Origin: Chloroflexota bacterium
Lineage (GTDB): Bacteria; Chloroflexota; UBA11872; UBA12225
Reading direction: 5' to 3'
Assembly (NCBI GenBank): GCA_947446285.1
Contig: CANFGH010000004.1
Location: 12,926-76,925, forward strand
Length of the DNA: 64,000 nt
The notes under the pieces: model-generated
Told to the model about the DNA's origin: nothing
Databases searched by the model: none
Seen by the model: the letters and a program-made list of their open reading frames with translations, nothing else
Translations under genes and position numbers: made by a program
Shown here: piece after piece, positions 7,405 to 44,722 of the stretch
Layout of the letters: every line of letters begins with the position of its first letter
Position numbering within the stretch: the first letter of the stretch is position 1

Positions 7405-7548
7405 CGAAGTGCCTTACATGAATGCAAGCACTCATTGCCCAGATTGGGCAGATTGCTCGTGCTTCCTGCCGTTTTGCGACGGTGAGTACGGTATCCGACA
7501 ACGGAATTCCATGCCGAATACCGCTCGCCTCAGTCGGGTGACTTGCAA

Positions 7549-7776
7549 CTACACCCGACCCGTGAGTTCCCCAGGGTTGGGAAAGCGACCACTGTGCTTC
7601 TTGGAGAAGAGAACCTCGGAGCCGCGTCGAACTTCGAACACGCCACCGCTACCCGGGATCAGCCGAACCTGGTTTGGCATCCCCGCCTGCTTGAACTCTG
7701 CCGCCAGACCGGCGGCTCGCTTTTCATACCCTCAAGACGTGCAATATTCAATCGTGATCTCGACATTTTCGGCCAT
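7549..7776 (-). CDS. SelW/SelT/Rdx-family thioredoxin-fold selenoprotein with in-frame UGA (Sec15)
   Basis: My translation is MAENVEITIEYCTSUGYEKRAAGLAAEFKQAGMPNQVRLIPGSGGVFEVRRGSEVLFSKKHSGRFPNPGELTGRV. The TGA at 7734-7732 falls at the second position of the CxxC/CxxU motif. A GGGAG Shine-Dalgarno sits 5 nt upstream of the ATG. A hairpin lies downstream of the UGA. Confidence 0.75.
7700..7716 (-). promoter_or_regulatory. Putative bacterial SECIS hairpin (GCCGCC-GGUCU-GGCGGC)
   Basis: The stem starts 15 nt after the UGA. The apical GGUCUG is in the reading frame as GGU CUG, and resembles my recollection of the E. coli fdhF SECIS apical sequence. Confidence 0.55.
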
Positions 7777-7887
7777 GGGAACTCCCTTTCACACGGTGCC
7801 AATGATCCCGACCACGCAGGTCCGGAGCGGAACCGCAATGCCCGTCCGGGCGTGCCGCCATTCTGCCACACTTCCGCGTGAACCCAA

Positions 7888-23000: not shown

Positions 23001-26000
23001 ATGACCAGCAAGACCACTCCAAACCAGCCAGCAAGTCACGAAGTTGAAAGTGCGCTGAATGACCCTTCCGGTGGCATTGGTGGCATCACCGCGCTGTCGA
23101 TCCGCAGGCCACTCTTGATGCTCATGGTCATCCTCTCGGTGATGATCTTTGGACTGATCGCCTACGGACGCCTAGGCGTTGACTTGTTTCCATCGGTGAA
23201 TTTCCCGGTGGTCAGTGTCAGCATCCCATATCCGGGTGCGAGCCCCGAGGTCGTTGAATCCCTTGTGACTCGACCGGTCGAGGACGCGGTGTCCGGCCTC
23301 GCAGACCTTGACACGATCAATTCGACGTCGTCAGAAGGCGTGGCGGTCGTGATCGTCACCTTCAAGGACAAGGCAGACCCTCAGACGGTCGCCATTGAGG
23401 TGGAAAAGCGGGTCAACGGAATTCGTGGCCAGCTACCCAATGACATCATTGCCCCCACAATCCTCAAATTCGACTTCACTGCCGCCCCCATCATCACTCT
23501 CGGACTGACGGGCGCCAACGTCACTCCTGCGCAGGCTTTCCGGATTGCAGATGAATTGGTGCGTCCGAAGCTGGAGACCACAAACGGTGTTGGTCAGGTC
23601 TCTATCTTTGGAGGCCAGCAGCGGGAAGTTCAGGTCAAGGTTGATCCAAATCGCCTTCGTGCCTACAACCTGACCCTCGCTCAGGTCTCCCAGGCACTTG
23701 GATCAGAAAACATCGACGCACCCGGTGGTCGCGTCGACGACGGCTCCCGGAACCTCAACATCCGCCTCGATGCAAGATTCCGCTCGGTCGATCAGATCAG
23801 GGATACGGTCGTACAGGCTTTGCCTACAGGCGGCACCATCCGGGTGCGTGACCTTGCTGAGGTGATCGACGGATACAAGGAACAGACCTTCCTGGCCCGC
23901 GTCAATGGGAGCCCCGGCGTCGGTATTTCCGTCTCAAAGCAATCGTCCTCAAACGTGACCCAAACAGCCGCCAACGTGCGGGCAACCCTGGCAAAAATAC
24001 GGACGACCCTCCCTGAGGGCGTCCAACTCATCGGTATTCAGGACCAGTCCGAATTCATCCAGACTTCCCTGGCTGGTGTTCAGCGAACCCTGCTGGAAGC
24101 GAACATCCTTACCGGTCTTGTCCTCCTTGCATTTCTTCATTCGTGGAGGAGCACACTGATCGTCCTGTTGGCGATCCCGACCTCGCTCATCGCCACGTTC
24201 GCCTTCATGTATTTGCAGGGGTTTACATTAAACTTCCTGACAACTCTTGCCTTGACGCTCACGGTCGGCATCCTCGTCGACGACAGTATCGTCGTGCTGG
24301 AAAACATCTTCCAGTTCCTCAAGCGCGGTGACTCCCCTCGAGTTGCCGCCGTACGGGGTCGCGCGGAAATTGGTCTCGCGGCCATCGCGATCACCTTGGT
24401 GGACGTCGTCGTCTTCGCTCCGGTAGGCCTTCTTTCGGGCCAGATCGGGCAGTTCTTCCGTCAGTTCGGGTTCACCGTTGTCGCCGCGACCCTCGCATCG
24501 CTCGCGGTCAGTTTCACACTCACTCCCTTGCTTGCGTCCCGCTGGCTTACATCGGAAGACGAACACGGAACCGGACCGCTCGCAATCTTCGGTCGCTGGT
24601 GGGACCGAGGCTTCGATCGACTCGAAGATCGGTACCGCGGGATCCTTCGCTGGTCACTCAGCCACCGTTGGGTCATCATGTTGGTGGCTGTCCTGTCATT
24701 TGCCGGGAGCATTGCCCTGCCGGCTGCAGGTCTGGTGAAGACCAGCTTCTTCCCGAACCAGGATCAGGGCACGTTCAATATCATTCTCGAACTCCCCCCG
24801 GGATCCACCCTTGACGCTACCGCGTCTGCGGTTGCTCAAATGGAAGCAGGGATCACCAAACTTCCCGAGTTCAAGGCCATCTATTCGGTCATCGGCCAAG
24901 GGGAAGGCGGAACGTCCCGCCAGTCTCGATTTGCAAATCTCCAAGTCATCCTCGTCGGGAAGCGCGAACGCACCAAATCAGTCGAACAGCTGGCACGGGA
25001 AGTCAAGGCTTTCGGTGAAGGTTTCCCCGGCCTGAAGGTTCGCGCAGGTGTTCCAGGGCCTGGAGGAGGCGCCGCGCAGCCGGTTAGCCTTCGTGTGTAT
25101 GGCGACGATCTCAAGGTCCTCAACGATCTGGCCGATAAGATCATCGGCAAGTTCCGCGAGACTGGTGGTCTCGTCGACATCACCAACAGCGGTCAAGCGG
25201 GTGCCCCGGAATACGTTGTCACGCTTGACCGGGCAAAGGCCGCTGATCTCGGTCTGTCCGCTGGCCAAGTGGCCCAGACGCTGAGGACCGCGTACGCCGG
25301 TTCTGTGGCCACAACCCTGCGTCGCGACCAGACTTCCGGAACCGCGAGTGGAGTTGACGTTCGTGTCCAGCTGACGGACGACACTCGAAAGGACATCACC
25401 CTTCTCCAGCAGGTGCCCCTCATTAGCCCTGCAAAGGGTGGCCAAGTTTACCTCGGCCAAATTGCGACCGTCGTTCCAGCTGCCGGTCCATCGCAGATCC
25501 AGCGCACCGACCGGCAGCGCGCGCTCACGATCGGTGCCAACCTCGGTGCAGGCCTGATCCTGAGTGATGTGACGAAACGGGTCAATGAAGCAATCGCTTC
25601 CGTTGAAGTTCCAGCAGGCTACCGGATCAAGATCGGCGGACAGGCTGACCAGCAGAACAACACGTTTACTGAATTCGGCAACGCGCTTCTCCTCTCGATC
25701 GCCCTTGTCTACATCCTCCTTGTAGCCCTCTACGAGTCTCTCCTCTATCCGCTGATCGTCATCGCGGCGCTGCCACTTGCCCTTGTCGGGGCAATGGGAG
25801 GGCTGGCCCTCGGACAAGAGACCCTGAATACCTTTTCGCTTATCGGGATCATCGCCCTCGTCGGCCTCGTTGGCAAGAACTCGATCCTTGTGATCGACTA
25901 CACCAACACTCTCCGGCGGGAGCAAGGGATGGGTAGATTTGACGCGCTCATGGAAGCGGGGCCACGACGGCTTCGTCCGATCCTCATGACCTCATCAGCA

Positions 26001-28637
26001 CTGATCTTCGCGCAGATCCCGCTGATGCTCAAGATCGAAGACGGCGCGGAGGTCCAGGCACCGATTGGCTGGGTCATTTTCGGCGGGATGATCAGTTCCA
26101 CCATTCTCGCCCTCGTCTTCGTCCCCACGCTGTACACACTCGTCGACGACTTCCAGAACTGGATTTTGCGGGGGTTCAAGCGCGACCGGTCGCGTGGACC
26201 TAAGGAGAAGGATATGAATGGATCGGGTTCCTCCACATCGGGCAACAACGACGAGATCGTTGTGCGTCCGGCCACGGAGAAGGTTGGCGTCGGGGCCACC
26301 GTCTCGCGCATCGCCACCACTGGCACCAACCTCGCAGTTGCAATCGTTGCCGTCGGAGGACTGTTCCTGAGTGCTTGCGGAACCCAGCCAGACACCGCCA
26401 AGGCTGCCCCGGTTGCGCCACCACTCAATGTGGCGGTCGTCGACGCTCGCAAGGAAACGGTTCGTGCGTCCGTGACCAGCAGTGGCGCGGTTGAGGCAAC
26501 GGATCAGGTTTCAGTCAGTACAAAGGTTTCGGGACGGGTCACCCGCCTCGACGCCGAAGTCGGCCAGAACGTGAAGGCCGGGCAACTGATCGCCGAACTT
26601 GATCGCGTGATCATCGAAGCCCAAGTTGCCCAAGCCGAAGCCGGACTGATGGGTGCCCAGGTCCGCTTGGGCCAACTCGAACGGGGACCACGCGCTGACG
26701 ATGTCGCCGTGGCCGCCGCCCAGCGCACCGCTGCCGAGAAGCAAGCCGACGCCGTCGCATCGCAAGCGGCTGTCGCAGAACAGTCCCTGACCACCTTTGA
26801 CGCCCAGATTGATGCCTCCACCAGCCAGGCCAACGCCTCCAAGGCGTCGGCACAGGCAGCAAAGACGCAGTCCCAAGGCGCACGTGCCCAGGCAAGCGGC
26901 GCGCGCAACCAGGCCAATGCCGCTCGCGCTCAGGCAAACGCCGCCAAAGTCCGCCTTGACCAGCTGAAGAACCCGCGTCCCGAAGACCTCGCTCTTCTTG
27001 AGAGCCAGGTCGAGACTGCCAAGATCCGACTTTCCCAGGCGTCCCAGCGTGACGAGGAAATCCGGGTTGTCCAGGCACAGGTCGAAGCCGCCCGCCTCGC
27101 CCTTCAGCAGGCGCAGGATCCGGCCCGCCCGGAACAGCTCCGGGCCGCTCAGGCACAGCTCGATGTCGCCAAGGCGACGCTGTCGAACCTCACCGAGGCT
27201 CCAGTCCGCGCTGAAGACCTTGAATCGATCCGTCTGGCGTATGAGAGCGCCGACAAGGCGTACGAAGCATCCGGTGACAGCCTGCGAATCGCCGAGAAGG
27301 CATATGACGCGGCCAAGCGCAGCCGGTCCACGTACGGCCCAGCCGTCGTGTCCGACTCGGTTCTCGCCCAGGCCGAAGGTGGTGTCGTCGCAGCTCAGGC
27401 AAATATCGAGCAAGCACGGATCCGCCGTGACACCGCCCGCGAGTCCTACAACAAGGCCCAAGCCGGCGCGACAGGTTGGGACCTCCGCAAGACCCAACTC
27501 GCCGTCGAAGCCGCGCAGGCCACCGTTGACCTGACCCGCAATCCTGACCCGGTCCGCGTCAAGAATGCCCAACTCACCCTCGAACAGGCTCAACTCAACC
27601 TCGAACTCCGGCAGCGCCAGATTGGCTTCGACCTCCAGACCGCCAAGGAAGGCCTGAAGGTTGCCGAGAACCAGCGCGCCAAGGTCGTCAACCCCGGAGA
27701 GTTCGACATCAAGTCCCTTGAAGAGGCTTCAAAGGCCGCTGAGGCCCAGGCACTCGGTGCGGAAGCTTCGGCCCAAGCCGCCGAAGCCAGCGCAGACGCC
27801 TCTGCAATCCAGGCAGAGGCTGCGGCTTCACAGGCCGGCGCCGCGGCCGCTCAGGTCAACGCTCTCTTGTCGCAGCGCACTGGGGCCGAATTCCAGATAA
27901 CAGGTGCCCGCAGTCAAGCCGACGGGGCGCGCGCAACCGCCGACCAGGCGGCTAGTGCGTACAAGTTGCGTGCGAACCCTTACACAGAGGACGACCTCAA
28001 GACCGCTCGTGTCGGTGTGGCTCAGGCCGAGGCGGCCGTCCGCCTCGGCCAAGCCAACCTTGCCGAAACCTACGTCTATGCGCCCATCGATGGCGTGATT
28101 ACCGCCCGGAACACCTCCATCGGATCACTGCTCAATCCGGGCCAACCAGTCGTCACCATCATTTCATCTGCCATCGAAATCACGGTCCCGGTTGAGGAAG
28201 CGAAGGTCGGTTCCGTCAAAGAAGGCCAAGCCGTCACGATGACCTCTCCCGCCCTTCCCGGAGTTTCGCTCGAAGGGAAGATCAACGCTGTCACTCCATC
28301 GGGTGACACCCGTAACCGTTCGTTCACCGCCCGCGTCCGCCTGGTGAAGCCCGACAGCCGACTGCGTCCGGGCATGTTCGTCAACACATCCATTGCCACC
28401 GAAGAGCGAGCGAACGCCATCGTGGTGAACCGCGAGGCCATCATCCTGACCAACGGCAAGAGCCAACTCTTCATAGTTGGAGCTGGCAACAAGGTTGAGA
28501 GCAGGGCCATCAAGGTGGGAATCTCCACGGGCAGCCTCGTGGAGGTTCTCGAAGGCGTGAGCGCCGGCGACAAGGTCATTGTCACGGGGGTCGAGGATCT
28601 CCGGGACGGACAGGTGGTCACCCCGGTATCGAAGTAG
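23001..28637 (+). CDS. RND (AcrB/HAE1-like) efflux permease fused in frame to a TM/lipobox segment and a periplasmic adaptor (MFP) with a giant coiled coil
   Basis: There is no in-frame stop from 23001 to 28637. The N-terminal ~1,070 aa are typical RND (SIRRPLLMLMV..FPSVNFPVVSV..). The segment ..LFLSAC (Cys codon 26376-26378) follows. Lipoyl, hairpin, beta-barrel and MP domains of an adaptor come next (VSGRVTRLDAEVGQNVKAGQLIAELD ... YVYAPIDGVI ...). The TTG at 22974 in the track is a less likely start than the ATG at 23001. Confidence 0.8.
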   Translation: MTSKTTPNQPASHEVESALNDPSGGIGGITALSIRRPLLMLMVILSVMIFGLIAYGRLGVDLFPSVNFPVVSVSIPYPGASPEVVESLVTRPVEDAVSGLADLDTINSTSSEGVAVVIVTFKDKADPQTVAIEVEKRVNGIRGQLPNDIIAPTILKFDFTAAPIITLGLTGANVTPAQAFRIADELVRPKLETTNGVGQVSIFGGQQREVQVKVDPNRLRAYNLTLAQVSQALGSENIDAPGGRVDDGSRNLNIRLDARFRSVDQIRDTVVQALPTGGTIRVRDLAEVIDGYKEQTFLARVNGSPGVGISVSKQSSSNVTQTAANVRATLAKIRTTLPEGVQLIGIQDQSEFIQTSLAGVQRTLLEANILTGLVLLAFLHSWRSTLIVLLAIPTSLIATFAFMYLQGFTLNFLTTLALTLTVGILVDDSIVVLENIFQFLKRGDSPRVAAVRGRAEIGLAAIAITLVDVVVFAPVGLLSGQIGQFFRQFGFTVVAATLASLAVSFTLTPLLASRWLTSEDEHGTGPLAIFGRWWDRGFDRLEDRYRGILRWSLSHRWVIMLVAVLSFAGSIALPAAGLVKTSFFPNQDQGTFNIILELPPGSTLDATASAVAQMEAGITKLPEFKAIYSVIGQGEGGTSRQSRFANLQVILVGKRERTKSVEQLAREVKAFGEGFPGLKVRAGVPGPGGGAAQPVSLRVYGDDLKVLNDLADKIIGKFRETGGLVDITNSGQAGAPEYVVTLDRAKAADLGLSAGQVAQTLRTAYAGSVATTLRRDQTSGTASGVDVRVQLTDDTRKDITLLQQVPLISPAKGGQVYLGQIATVVPAAGPSQIQRTDRQRALTIGANLGAGLILSDVTKRVNEAIASVEVPAGYRIKIGGQADQQNNTFTEFGNALLLSIALVYILLVALYESLLYPLIVIAALPLALVGAMGGLALGQETLNTFSLIGIIALVGLVGKNSILVIDYTNTLRREQGMGRFDALMEAGPRRLRPILMTSSALIFAQIPLMLKIEDGAEVQAPIGWVIFGGMISSTILALVFVPTLYTLVDDFQNWILRGFKRDRSRGPKEKDMNGSGSSTSGNNDEIVVRPATEKVGVGATVSRIATTGTNLAVAIVAVGGLFLSACGTQPDTAKAAPVAPPLNVAVVDARKETVRASVTSSGAVEATDQVSVSTKVSGRVTRLDAEVGQNVKAGQLIAELDRVIIEAQVAQAEAGLMGAQVRLGQLERGPRADDVAVAAAQRTAAEKQADAVASQAAVAEQSLTTFDAQIDASTSQANASKASAQAAKTQSQGARAQASGARNQANAARAQANAAKVRLDQLKNPRPEDLALLESQVETAKIRLSQASQRDEEIRVVQAQVEAARLALQQAQDPARPEQLRAAQAQLDVAKATLSNLTEAPVRAEDLESIRLAYESADKAYEASGDSLRIAEKAYDAAKRSRSTYGPAVVSDSVLAQAEGGVVAAQANIEQARIRRDTARESYNKAQAGATGWDLRKTQLAVEAAQATVDLTRNPDPVRVKNAQLTLEQAQLNLELRQRQIGFDLQTAKEGLKVAENQRAKVVNPGEFDIKSLEEASKAAEAQALGAEASAQAAEASADASAIQAEAAASQAGAAAAQVNALLSQRTGAEFQITGARSQADGARATADQAASAYKLRANPYTEDDLKTARVGVAQAEAAVRLGQANLAETYVYAPIDGVITARNTSIGSLLNPGQPVVTIISSAIEITVPVEEAKVGSVKEGQAVTMTSPALPGVSLEGKINAVTPSGDTRNRSFTARVRLVKPDSRLRPGMFVNTSIATEERANAIVVNREAIILTNGKSQLFIVGAGNKVESRAIKVGISTGSLVEVLEGVSAGDKVIVTGVEDLRDGQVVTPVSK

Positions 28638-43816: not shown

Positions 43817-44722
43817 GTGAGCACCGAAGGCGGGGCCGCCGGGGCGGCAATATCTCTACGCGCAACCCTTGCGAACTCCAAGTGGTTGGGCACTGCATGC
43901 CCCAAATGCAGCGAAGGGTTTGCGGTTGCCGACCAGGTAGTCCTGTGCCCGTCATGTTTCTCAGCGCACCACGCTGCTTGCTGGCGAGAGAACGGGAATA
44001 CGTGCGCCAAGGACCAGACGCCTGGTCGCATCATCGAGCCCCGTGGGCGCGGTGCCTCGCCCGCATCTGAGGCTCCCGCTCCGGTTCAGGCTCCAGCTTC
44101 GGCTGGGCCAGTCGCAGCACTCGCAGCAGTTGCACGACCCGCCGCTCCGGCCAAGCCTGCTGCACCCGCCGCCCCGGTGAAGGGTGCCGGCCCCGCAGTG
44201 CGCGACGCCAAGGGCCTCCGTCCGATCGATGGTGTGCGTGCTCGAATTCAATCAGCGACGAATGACCTTGCGCCCGTCTTTGGCACCGCCATCGACGAAG
44301 TTACCGTGACCGTTCCACCTGAAAATCTTCCCGAAGCGGCACGCAGGCTGAAGGAAACCGACGGGCTGAAGTTCGATTACCTGAGATGCCTGAGCGGCGT
44401 TGATTACCAGTCAGACGGCATCGAGGTGGTCTACCACTTGTTCAGCACCCGGCTGGCACAGAAGTGCGTTCTCAAAACCCGTTTGGCAGCCGAGGGCGAC
44501 GCCGTTGGGACGGTTACCACGGTCTGGGCAGGTGCCGACTGGCACGAACGAGAAACCGCCGAAATGTTCAACATCCGGTTTGAGGGGCACCCATACCCCG
44601 AACCACTTCTTTTGGAACGCGATGACCAAGGCACCATCGTTCCCGGACCGGTTCTTCTTAAGCGCTTCAAGTTGCGCCCCAAGGAACCGCCCGCTCAGTA
44701 TGGCTTTCCCGAGCAAGAGTAG
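43817..44722 (+). CDS. nuoC: NADH-quinone oxidoreductase subunit C with an N-terminal zinc-finger (prokaryotic RING-like) domain and a Pro/Ala linker
   Basis: The C-terminal ~160 aa are canonical NuoC (FDYLRCLSGVDY...WHERETAEMFNIRFEGHP). The N-terminus has CPKC-x12-CPSC-x3-HH-x2-CW-x7-C. Confidence 0.85.
   Translation: MSTEGGAAGAAISLRATLANSKWLGTACPKCSEGFAVADQVVLCPSCFSAHHAACWRENGNTCAKDQTPGRIIEPRGRGASPASEAPAPVQAPASAGPVAALAAVARPAAPAKPAAPAAPVKGAGPAVRDAKGLRPIDGVRARIQSATNDLAPVFGTAIDEVTVTVPPENLPEAARRLKETDGLKFDYLRCLSGVDYQSDGIEVVYHLFSTRLAQKCVLKTRLAAEGDAVGTVTTVWAGADWHERETAEMFNIRFEGHPYPEPLLLERDDQGTIVPGPVLLKRFKLRPKEPPAQYGFPEQE

What the first reader, a model, noticed from the sequence alone, without database searches (positions are those of the whole stretch)
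7695..7734. SECIS-like hairpin with an fdhF-like GGUCUG apical sequence in register with the reading frame
The sequence downstream of the UGA is GGGUAUGAAAAGCGA-GCCGCC-GGUCU-GGCGGC. This is a perfect 6-bp GC stem whose loop begins 21 nt after the UGA. As I recall the E. coli fdhF SECIS, its apical region reads GCAGGUCUGC with GGU CUG in frame, 18 nt after the UGA. The match in both loop sequence and spacing is striking for an unrelated gene family.
Basis: partly seen in the sequence, partly recalled or inferred. Interest (0 to 1): 0.5.

Follow-up and report, generated by a model that had tools for sequence, protein, structure and literature searches.

The report
Selenocysteine insertion hairpin in SelW-like gene
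The hairpin is real and is almost certainly the mRNA signal that tells the ribosome to read an in-frame UGA as selenocysteine in a small SelW-like redox protein of an uncultured Chloroflexota bacterium; this is a correct but ordinary example of a well-known mechanism.

Summary
On the minus strand, a 75-codon Rdx/SelW-like gene (7776..7549) has a C-T-S-U motif with TGA at 7734..7732. After 15 nt comes GCCGCC-GGUCU-GGCGGC (7716..7700).

The window alone is weak evidence. The fold z-score is -0.54. Given the peptide AAGLAA, 15% of synonymous recodings keep the stem, and 35 chance TGA+hairpin combinations occur in open frames of the window.

Comparative evidence settles it:
- **Register and loop:** 54 distinct UGA-containing SelW-like genes from many phyla carry a hairpin in exactly this register (UGA + 21 nt), with loop consensus R-G-U-Y-U.
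- **Pairing:** 87% of cells are paired, against 20-46% for slid controls. Wobble-position pairs hold in 53/54 and 52/54 genes, against 9/25 and 11/25 in Cys homologs.
- **Codon choice:** the loop Gly codon is GGU in 20/20 genes, against 30% elsewhere in the same genes.
- **Model test:** a covariance model built without this clade hits only this site in the window (39.3 bits, E about 3e-8).

The resemblance to fdhF is limited to GGUCUG. The geometry differs, and Rfam's fdhF-type SECIS models do not match. No Sec machinery lies in the window. Verdict: a genuine bacterial SECIS, a new member of a known kind, of low interest.

The parts
7549..7776 (-). SelW-like (Rdx family) selenoprotein gene: 75 codons plus TAG stop, product MAENVEITIEYCTSUGYEKRAAGLAAEFKQAGMPNQVRLIPGSGGVFEVRRGSEVLFSKKHSGRFPNPGELTGRV
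   Evidence: Translation. Pfam PF10262 Rdx, E=1.5e-19. NCBIfam TIGR02174 CXXU_selWTH, 53.9 bits against a cutoff of 34.2. Same gene, synteny and TGA in related Chloroflexota MAGs.
7782..7787 (-). Shine-Dalgarno-like AGGGAG, 5 nt upstream of the ATG at 7776
   Evidence: Read directly from the sequence. Conserved in L001-L012.
7732..7743 (-). CxxU redox motif: TGC ACG TCT TGA (Cys-Thr-Ser-Sec). The Sec codon TGA is at 7734..7732.
   Evidence: TGA sits at the same aligned position in 56 of 81 family members examined (window plus 80 loci), and TGC/TGT in the other 25.
7717..7731 (-). 15-nt spacer between the UGA and the base of the hairpin (GGGUAUGAAAAGCGA)
   Evidence: The spacing has no indels in all 54 distinct UGA-containing homologs (ungapped alignment A2).
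7711..7716 (-). 5' arm of the SECIS stem, GCCGCC (codons Ala-Ala)
   Evidence: Pairs with compensatory changes across the family.
7706..7710 (-). Apical loop GGUCU. It may instead be a GUC triloop closed by G.U. The conserved G and U are at 7709 and 7708.
   Evidence: Family loop consensus is R-G-U-Y-U: GGUCU in 20, AGUUU in 17 and AGUCU in 10 of 54. The G is invariant and the U is present in >=90%.
7700..7705 (-). 3' arm of the SECIS stem, GGCGGC (third base of Leu, then Ala, then the first two bases of Ala)
7697..7734 (-). Whole recoding unit (UGA + spacer + hairpin) as matched by the family covariance model
   Evidence: cmsearch with model R1, built without this clade: 39.3 bits, E=3.1e-8. 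The next-best hit in the window scores 10.8 bits.

Best explanation
The hairpin is a bacterial selenocysteine insertion sequence (bSECIS) inside the coding region of a SelW-like (Rdx family) selenoprotein gene.

Shown here:
- There is an in-frame UGA at the CxxU motif.
- A 6-bp stem starts 15 nt after the UGA, with a loop that displays G-U.
- This element is under RNA-level selection across the gene family.

Inferred from the established E. coli and Moorella mechanism:
- When the ribosome has the UGA in its A site, the hairpin sits just outside the mRNA entrance.
- The C-terminal winged-helix domain of SelB binds the exposed loop G-U.
- SelB-GTP then delivers Sec-tRNA(Sec), so UGA is read as selenocysteine instead of being read by RF2.
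- The ribosome then melts the hairpin and translates it as Ala-Ala-Gly-Leu-Ala-Ala, part of the helix that follows the redox motif.

The RNA requirement therefore co-determines that stretch of peptide.
For: Gene and codon:
- The gene is an Rdx/SelW-like CxxU protein.
- TGA is an ordinary stop for 20 of 39 long ORFs in the window, so the genetic code is standard.
- TGA and an identical hairpin are retained in related Chloroflexota genomes, where synonymous changes occur elsewhere in the gene.

Family evidence, from 54 distinct UGA-containing homologs in Chloroflexota, Gemmatimonadota, Desulfobulbia, Planctomycetota, Acidobacteriota, Verrucomicrobiota and others:
- All have a hairpin in the same register.
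- 87% of cells are paired, against 20-46% for slid partners.
- 54 cells show changes on both sides, against 15.4 in shuffles (0 of 500 shuffles reach it).
- The covariation score is 0.381 against 0.157.
- RNAalifold predicts only this helix.
- The two pairs made of third-codon positions are paired in 53/54 and 52/54 Sec genes, but only 9/25 and 11/25 Cys homologs.

Loop codon choice:
- GGU in 20/20 loop Gly codons, against 30% of other Gly codons in the same genes.
- AGU in 28/29 loop Ser codons, against 12% elsewhere.

Model test:
- The leave-clade-out covariance model gives 39.3 bits (E about 3e-8) and is unique in the 64 kb.
- It does not match Cys homologs; the best scores 9.8 bits.

Published descriptions fit: a 6-8 bp stem with a conserved loop G about 20 nt after the UGA (PMC4605307); a small apical loop containing G, and SelW-like CXXU selenoproteins with a bSECIS (PMC1088965).
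Against: - No selA, selB, selD or tRNA-Sec gene lies in the 64-kb window. I could not search the rest of the genome, so Sec decoding in this organism is inferred, not shown.
- Within the window alone the hairpin is not statistically exceptional.
- There is no bulged U like E. coli U17.
- Rfam's SECIS models give no match.
- One related 1.3-kb metagenomic contig (L011) has GGA (Gly) instead of TGA while keeping the hairpin.
- The sequences in the covariation test are phylogenetically related, so the shuffle statistics overstate independence.
Confidence: 0.9

Rival explanations
1. The hairpin is a by-product of the peptide. An Ala-rich helix (AAGLAA) in a 60% G+C genome is encoded by GCN codons that are self-complementary, so the stem has no RNA function of its own.
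For: Four of the six pairs follow automatically from Ala codon positions 1-2. Of synonymous recodings, 14.8% keep a 6-bp stem and 3.3% are as stable. The fold z-score is -0.54. Chance TGA+hairpin combinations are common in the window (35).
Against: Third-codon-position pairs covary synonymously: GCC with GAG and GCU with GAA. They are paired in 53/54 and 52/54 Sec genes but only at chance level in Cys homologs (9/25, 11/25). The loop uses GGU or AGU almost exclusively, although these are minority codons elsewhere in the same genes. Amino-acid replacements are themselves compensatory at the RNA level: Ala..Ala to Ser(UCC)..Glu(GAG) and to Thr(ACC)..Val(GUG).
Confidence: 0.04
2. The TGA is a true stop, so the gene is a decayed pseudogene or two small ORFs. 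Public MAG annotation implies this by calling only a 52-aa ORF that starts inside the hairpin.
For: GenBank MAG annotations call only the 3' part (P0002, 'hypothetical protein'). No Sec machinery is seen in the window.
Against: Both halves together make a complete Rdx domain, profile positions 1-72 of 74. The TGA falls exactly on the catalytic CxxU/CxxC position. The TGA, the reading frame and the hairpin are conserved in several species-level genomes and in more than 50 genes from many phyla. Truncated calls are the usual mis-annotation of selenoprotein genes (PMC1088965).
Confidence: 0.04
3. UGA is recoded here by something other than SelB/Sec. Candidates are near-cognate read-through as Trp or Cys stimulated by the downstream structure, or a lineage-specific reassignment of UGA.
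For: A gene caller translated the related contig L011 with Gly at this position, but there the codon is truly GGA. Downstream structures can stimulate read-through in general (established knowledge).
Against: TGA terminates 20 of 39 long ORFs in the window. The loop G-U, the stem length and the distance match the SelB-dependent element (PMC4605307, PMC8659212). The family is a documented Sec family (TIGR02174; PMC1088965).
Confidence: 0.02

Closest known systems
bSECIS elements of bacterial SelW-like (CXXU) selenoprotein genes, as described in the Sargasso Sea and bacterial selenoproteome surveys (PMC1088965, PMC1794560; NCBIfam TIGR02174)
   Same: Same protein family and CxxU motif. The hairpin lies immediately 3' of the UGA inside the ORF and has a small apical loop with a conserved G. 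The window element scores 39.3 bits against a model built from 49 such genes of other lineages.
   Different: Nothing essential. This copy comes from an uncultured freshwater Chloroflexota lineage (TK10-type MAGs). It has Gly-Tyr (GGG UAU) instead of the usual Asn-Tyr (AAC UAC) after the UGA, and a 6-bp rather than 7-bp stem (A.A at the seventh pair).
E. coli fdhF SECIS (Rfam SECIS_2, RF01988)
   Same: SelB-type element within the ORF. The hexamer GGUCUG sits at the apex, in frame as Gly-Leu and preceded by an Ala codon (A-G-L in both). The loop presents G-U.
   Different: fdhF has a 4-nt GGUC loop closed by A-U, a 3-bp upper helix, a bulged U17 and a long lower helix, and its loop starts 18 nt after the UGA. 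Here the loop is 5 nt (or a GUC triloop closed by G.U) on an uninterrupted 6-bp G-C stem, with no bulged U and no conserved lower helix, and it starts 21 nt after the UGA. SECIS_2 and SECIS_3 match fdhF (87.1 and 35.8 bits) but not the window. Model R1 does not match fdhF.
Moorella thermoacetica fdhA SECIS hairpin, used in the SelB WH3/4-RNA crystal structure (PDB 1WSU, cited in PMC4605307)
   Same: From my own recollection only, not verified here: that RNA has an uninterrupted G-C-rich stem capped by ...GCC-GGUCU-GGC..., the same apex as the window element. SelB recognises the flipped-out G and U.
   Different: It belongs to a different gene family (formate dehydrogenase). I could not retrieve the sequence with the tools (one search found nothing relevant), so this comparison is a lead, not a test.

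Membership tests
Bacterial SECIS (SelB-dependent recoding hairpin) | Located inside the ORF immediately downstream of an in-frame UGA that aligns with Cys/Sec of homologs | tested here: met
   TGA at 7734..7732 lies in the CxxU motif. 25 homologs have TGC/TGT at the same position.
Bacterial SECIS (SelB-dependent recoding hairpin) | Stem of about 6-8 bp with a small apical loop (PMC4605307; PMC1088965) | tested here: met
   6-bp perfect stem with a 5-nt loop. 42 of 54 family members have 5-7 consecutive pairs.
Bacterial SECIS (SelB-dependent recoding hairpin) | Conserved G (G-U) in the apical loop about 20 nt downstream of the UGA | tested here: met
   The G and U are the 23rd and 24th nt after the UGA. 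The G is invariant and the U is present in >=90% of 54 genes. This is 3 nt further than G23/U24 of fdhF (PMC8659212).
Bacterial SECIS (SelB-dependent recoding hairpin) | Stem maintained by compensatory changes in orthologs and absent from Cys-containing homologs | tested here: met
   Cys homologs score <=9.8 bits with model R1.
Bacterial SECIS (SelB-dependent recoding hairpin) | Bulged U in the 5' arm (U17 of E. coli fdhF). This is a feature of the E. coli element, not of all bacterial SECIS. | tested here: not met
   The stem is uninterrupted in the window and in nearly all family members.
Bacterial SECIS (SelB-dependent recoding hairpin) | Sec machinery (selA, selB, selC, selD) present in the same genome | not testable with these tools
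   None found in the 64-kb window (no tRNA; Pfam scan of 39 ORFs).
Bacterial SECIS (SelB-dependent recoding hairpin) | Binds SelB and directs Sec insertion at the UGA | not testable with these tools
   Requires SelB binding assays, 75Se labelling or reporter assays.
Rfam SECIS_2 / SECIS_3 (fdhF-type bacterial SECIS models) | Covariance-model score at or above the family gathering score | tested here: not met
   No hit at gathering threshold or at E<=10 in 7500-7850. The positive control, E. coli fdhF, gives 87.1 bits (SECIS_2) and 35.8 bits (SECIS_3).
Rdx / SelW-SelT-SelH family (PF10262; TIGR02174 CXXU_selWTH) | Profile HMM score above the curated cutoff | tested here: met
   PF10262: 70.4 bits against a cutoff of 22.6. 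TIGR02174: 53.9 bits against 34.2. NF041051 (Campylobacter-type equivalog): 80.8 bits, below its cutoff of 88, so not that equivalog.
Rdx / SelW-SelT-SelH family (PF10262; TIGR02174 CXXU_selWTH) | N-terminal CxxU/CxxC redox motif after the first beta-strand | tested here: met
   IEYCTSU at residues 9-15.

The most novel reading that the evidence does not exclude
SelW-like selenoprotein genes across many bacterial phyla may share one distinct, family-specific SECIS class:
- a fixed register of UGA + 21 nt;
- an uninterrupted stem;
- an R-G-U-Y-U apex with no bulged U;
- loop position 1 = G always paired with position 4 = C (20/20), which hints at a cross-loop pair that leaves only G-U exposed.

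This class is not represented in Rfam, and it visibly dictates the peptide A-[A/S/T]-[G/S]-L-[A/E/V]-A. If it has not been described at this resolution, it would make a new curated RNA family and a clean natural data set for SelB recognition rules outside E. coli.
Probability: 0.4. Interest if true: 0.3.

Novelty: new member of a known kind. Interest (0 to 1): 0.15.

Why it matters
- **Annotation.** In public MAGs of this Chloroflexota lineage the gene is called as a 52-residue 'hypothetical protein' that starts inside the hairpin. It should be a 75-residue selenoprotein.
- **Physiology.** The element implies that this freshwater lineage decodes selenocysteine.
- **Method.** A single hairpin after a TGA in a G+C-rich genome is not evidence by itself. 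Wobble-position covariation and loop codon bias across homologs are.
- **Resource.** The family alignment (A2) and model (R1) could seed an Rfam family for SelW-type bacterial SECIS, which Rfam currently lacks.

None of this changes current understanding of Sec recoding.

Tried and rejected
- **Rfam.** At gathering threshold on the whole window and at E<=10 around the site there was no SECIS hit, only chance matches. The fdhF control shows that Rfam's bacterial SECIS models are specific to formate dehydrogenase genes, so this negative says little.
- **tRNA scan.** No tRNA-Sec was found.
- **Pfam scan of all 39 long ORFs.** No sel genes. The ORFs include MFS transporters, an MlrC/M81 peptidase, a PLD-like protein, MetRS, Nuo subunits, an RND pump and others.
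- **RNAfold z-score of the 61-nt region.** Not significant. I rejected it as a criterion in a 60% G+C coding region.
- **Lower helix from the single-sequence fold.** UGAA/UUCA is not supported by the family consensus.
- **Naive scan for other selenoprotein genes.** It returned 35 hits that looked like noise; only one was frame-checked and it was off-frame. I did not pursue the rest.
- **Full-text search for the Moorella SECIS sequence.** Only unrelated papers came up, so that comparison stays a recollection.
- **Close relatives (L001-L014).** They are too similar (about 94% nt identity) to give covariation.
- **Sec machinery in the same MAGs.** I considered using the remaining protein-database searches for this. 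I did not, because without a query from this lineage the hits could not be tied to the organism.

Full report
**Observation**

The minus strand of 7549-7776 encodes a 75-codon ORF:

MAENVEITIEYCTS*GYEKRAAGLAAEFKQAGMPNQVRLIPGSGGVFEVRRGSEVLFSKKHSGRFPNPGELTGRV.

An AGGGAG Shine-Dalgarno-like site sits 5 nt upstream of the ATG. The in-frame TGA (7734..7732) is the fourth position of a C-T-S-U motif. With Cys substituted for the stop, the protein matches Pfam Rdx (PF10262) at E=1.5e-19 over profile positions 1-72 of 74. It also matches NCBIfam TIGR02174 'CXXU_selWTH' above its cutoff.

It has a perfect 6-bp stem, the loop begins 21 nt after the UGA, and GGU CUG is in frame.

TGA CAC GGC CCA TCG GTT GCA GGT CTG is found at >=95% identity (>=99% in 5412 records) under the fdhF annotation in 5419 of 5426 complete E. 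coli genomes.

**Is the hairpin more than chance?**

Not on the evidence of the window alone:
- The 61-nt fold has a z-score of only -0.54 against dinucleotide shuffles.
- The peptide AAGLAA forces four of the six pairs, because Ala codons start with GC.
- With the window's own codon usage, 14.8% of synonymous recodings keep a 6-bp stem at this place, 3.3% are as stable, and 2.7% also have GGUCU.
- A naive scan for TGA in an open frame followed by a >=6-bp hairpin with GU in the loop returns 35 sites in the window. The other hits looked like noise but were not checked individually.

The single-sequence observation is therefore suggestive at best.

**Relatives**

The nearest relatives are freshwater Chloroflexota MAGs (TK10-type, UBA2235, Baikal-deep-G104; 91-93% amino-acid identity). 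They show the same synteny: PLD-like gene, this gene, MlrC/M81 peptidase. All keep the TGA and an identical hairpin, while 7-9 synonymous changes occur elsewhere in the gene. They are too close to inform on covariation. In those records only a 52-residue 3' fragment is annotated, and it starts inside the hairpin. This is the usual mis-annotation of selenoprotein genes (PMC1088965).

A scan of one genome per GTDB species returned 80 loci. Of these, 55 have TGA at the CxxU position and 25 have TGC/TGT (56 TGA genes when the window is included). The TGA-containing genes come from Chloroflexota, Gemmatimonadota, Desulfobulbaceae and cable bacteria, Planctomycetota, Acidobacteriota, Verrucomicrobiota, Gammaproteobacteria and others.

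**Covariation**

The 54 distinct TGA-containing sequences align without a single gap from the Cys codon to 57 nt past the TGA (alignment A2). The hairpin therefore sits in the same register in all of them.

For the helix at columns 30-37 paired with 41-48:

| Measure | Observed | Control |
|---|---|---|
| Cells forming standard pairs | 87% | 20-46% when the 3' partners are slid by 1-3 columns |
| Cells changed on both sides | 54 | 15.4 in column shuffles (0 of 500 reach it) |
| Covariation score | 0.381 | 0.157 (0 of 500 reach it) |

RNAalifold predicts this helix and nothing else. The lower helix in the single-sequence fold is thus not supported.

Two pairs consist of third-codon positions only, so they are free of protein constraint. 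They are paired in 53/54 and 52/54 Sec genes (for example GCC...GAG against GCU...GAA). In the 25 Cys homologs they are paired in only 9/25 and 11/25. Where amino acids change, they change in an RNA-compensatory way: Ala/Ala to Ser(UCC)/Glu(GAG) in 14 sequences, and to Thr(ACC)/Val(GUG) in 2.

**Loop**

The loop is GGUCU in 20 sequences, AGUUU in 17, AGUCU in 10 and something else in 7 of 54. The consensus is R-G-U-Y-U, with the G invariant and the following U present in at least 90%.

This forces unusual codons:
- The loop Gly codon is GGU in 20/20 genes, against 30% of all other Gly codons in the same genes.
- The loop Ser codon is AGU in 28/29, against 12% elsewhere.
- The following Leu codon is YUG in 45/50, against 52% elsewhere.

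Loop positions 1 and 5 are always able to pair (A-U in 31, G.U in 20). The apex may therefore be a G-U-Y triloop.

**Model test**

I built a covariance model from 49 family members, leaving out the window and its clade. It finds exactly one significant match in the 64-kb window on either strand: 7697-7734 (-), at 39.3 bits and E about 3e-8. The next-best hit scores 10.8 bits. The model does not match any of the 25 Cys-homolog loci; the best is 9.8 bits, in an archaeal Cys form of the same subfamily. It does not match the E. coli fdhF locus either.

**Comparison with fdhF and published descriptions**

The fdhF resemblance is limited to the hexamer GGUCUG, which encodes A-G-L together with the preceding Ala codon in both genes.

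| Feature | E. coli fdhF (PMC8659212) | Window element |
|---|---|---|
| Loop | 4-nt GGUC, closed by A-U | 5-nt GGUCU, or a GUC triloop closed by G.U |
| Stem | short upper helix with bulged U17, long lower helix | uninterrupted 6-bp G-C stem |
| Conserved G and U (U of UGA = 1) | G23 / U24 | positions 26 / 27 |
| Conserved lower helix | yes | none |

Rfam's SECIS_2 and SECIS_3 recognise the fdhF control (87.1 and 35.8 bits). They give no match here at E<=10. These models are specific to formate dehydrogenase genes, so the negative excludes membership of those Rfam families, not SECIS function.

[quoted passage not shown] SelW-like CXXU proteins are a long-known bacterial selenoprotein family and were the most abundant one in the Sargasso Sea survey (PMC1088965; also PMC1794560).

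The similarity between unrelated genes is what one expects when all elements must bind the same SelB domain.

**Mechanism**

Shown here: the in-frame UGA at the redox motif, the conserved covarying hairpin with G-U in its loop at a fixed distance, and a standard genetic code (TGA ends 20 of 39 long ORFs).

Inferred from the E. coli and Moorella systems (PMC4605307, PMC8659212): SelB-GTP-Sec-tRNA(Sec) binds the loop through its C-terminal winged-helix domain while the UGA is in the A site and the hairpin is at the mRNA entrance. Sec is then inserted in competition with RF2. The ribosome then unwinds the hairpin and translates it as AAGLAA.

**What is missing**

No selA, selB, selD or tRNA-Sec gene lies in the window, and I could not search the rest of the genome. 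One related 1.3-kb contig (L011) has GGA instead of TGA. The shuffle statistics ignore phylogeny, although the slid-partner control and the Cys-homolog control do not suffer from that.

**Verdict**

- Observation: confirmed.
- Interpretation: supported, with the fdhF likeness being superficial.
- What it is: a genuine but ordinary bacterial SECIS of a SelW-like selenoprotein, a new member of a known kind.
- Practical value: correcting the annotation, and possibly seeding a SelW-type SECIS family in Rfam.

Noticed in passing
L011:186-223 (ENA metagenome contig, 1351 bp): A close relative of the gene has GGA (Gly) instead of TGA at the Sec position while keeping the identical hairpin. Model R1 still scores it 28.7 bits. 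This is either a real Sec-to-Gly population variant (presumably inactive) or an assembly or sequencing error.
   Followed up: partly
L001-L010, e.g. L001:3001-3159: Public MAG annotation calls only a 52-residue 'hypothetical protein' whose start (CTG read as Met) lies inside the SECIS loop. The true 75-codon selenoprotein ORF is missed in at least 12 contigs.
   Followed up: yes
alignment A2, columns 37 and 40 (window 7710 and 7707, minus strand): Loop position 1 = G always goes with position 4 = C (20/20). Position 1 = A goes with U (18) or C (12). Fisher p = 8e-6, not corrected for phylogeny. This may reflect a cross-loop pair that leaves only G-U exposed, or simply shared ancestry.
   Followed up: partly
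L015, L019, L025, L030, L034, L046, L062 (mostly Gemmatimonadales; also a Desulfovibrionaceae and an unclassified MAG), alignment A2 columns 34/44: Seven family members carry a conserved A.C mismatch (ACC opposite GCG) in the middle of the SECIS stem rather than a compensated pair.
   Followed up: no
window 7533-7559 (minus strand): An 8-bp inverted repeat, GUCGGGUG ... CACCCGAC, with an 11-nt loop spans the TAG stop codon of the SelW-like gene. No U-run follows it, so it does not look like an intrinsic terminator. The MlrC-like gene follows 145 nt downstream on the same strand.
   Followed up: no
window 23001-28637 (+): A single 1878-codon ORF combines a complete AcrB/RND transporter domain (residues 30-1048) with HlyD-type membrane-fusion domains (about residues 1170-1794). 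This is either a fused pump-adaptor gene or two genes with no intervening stop.
   Followed up: no
window 43817-44722 (+): The NuoC-like (Complex1_30kDa) ORF carries an N-terminal Prok-RING_1 zinc-finger match (residues 25-66), an unusual addition to a complex I subunit. The ORF start was not verified.
   Followed up: no
window 7717-7731 (minus strand) versus alignment A2 columns 16-21: Most Sec-type SelW-like genes have AAC UAC (Asn-Tyr) right after the UGA (28 of 54; AAY UAY in 43). The window clade, L021 and L084 have GGG UAU/UAC (Gly-Tyr). So the base following the UGA is G instead of A, which may affect competition with termination.
   Followed up: no
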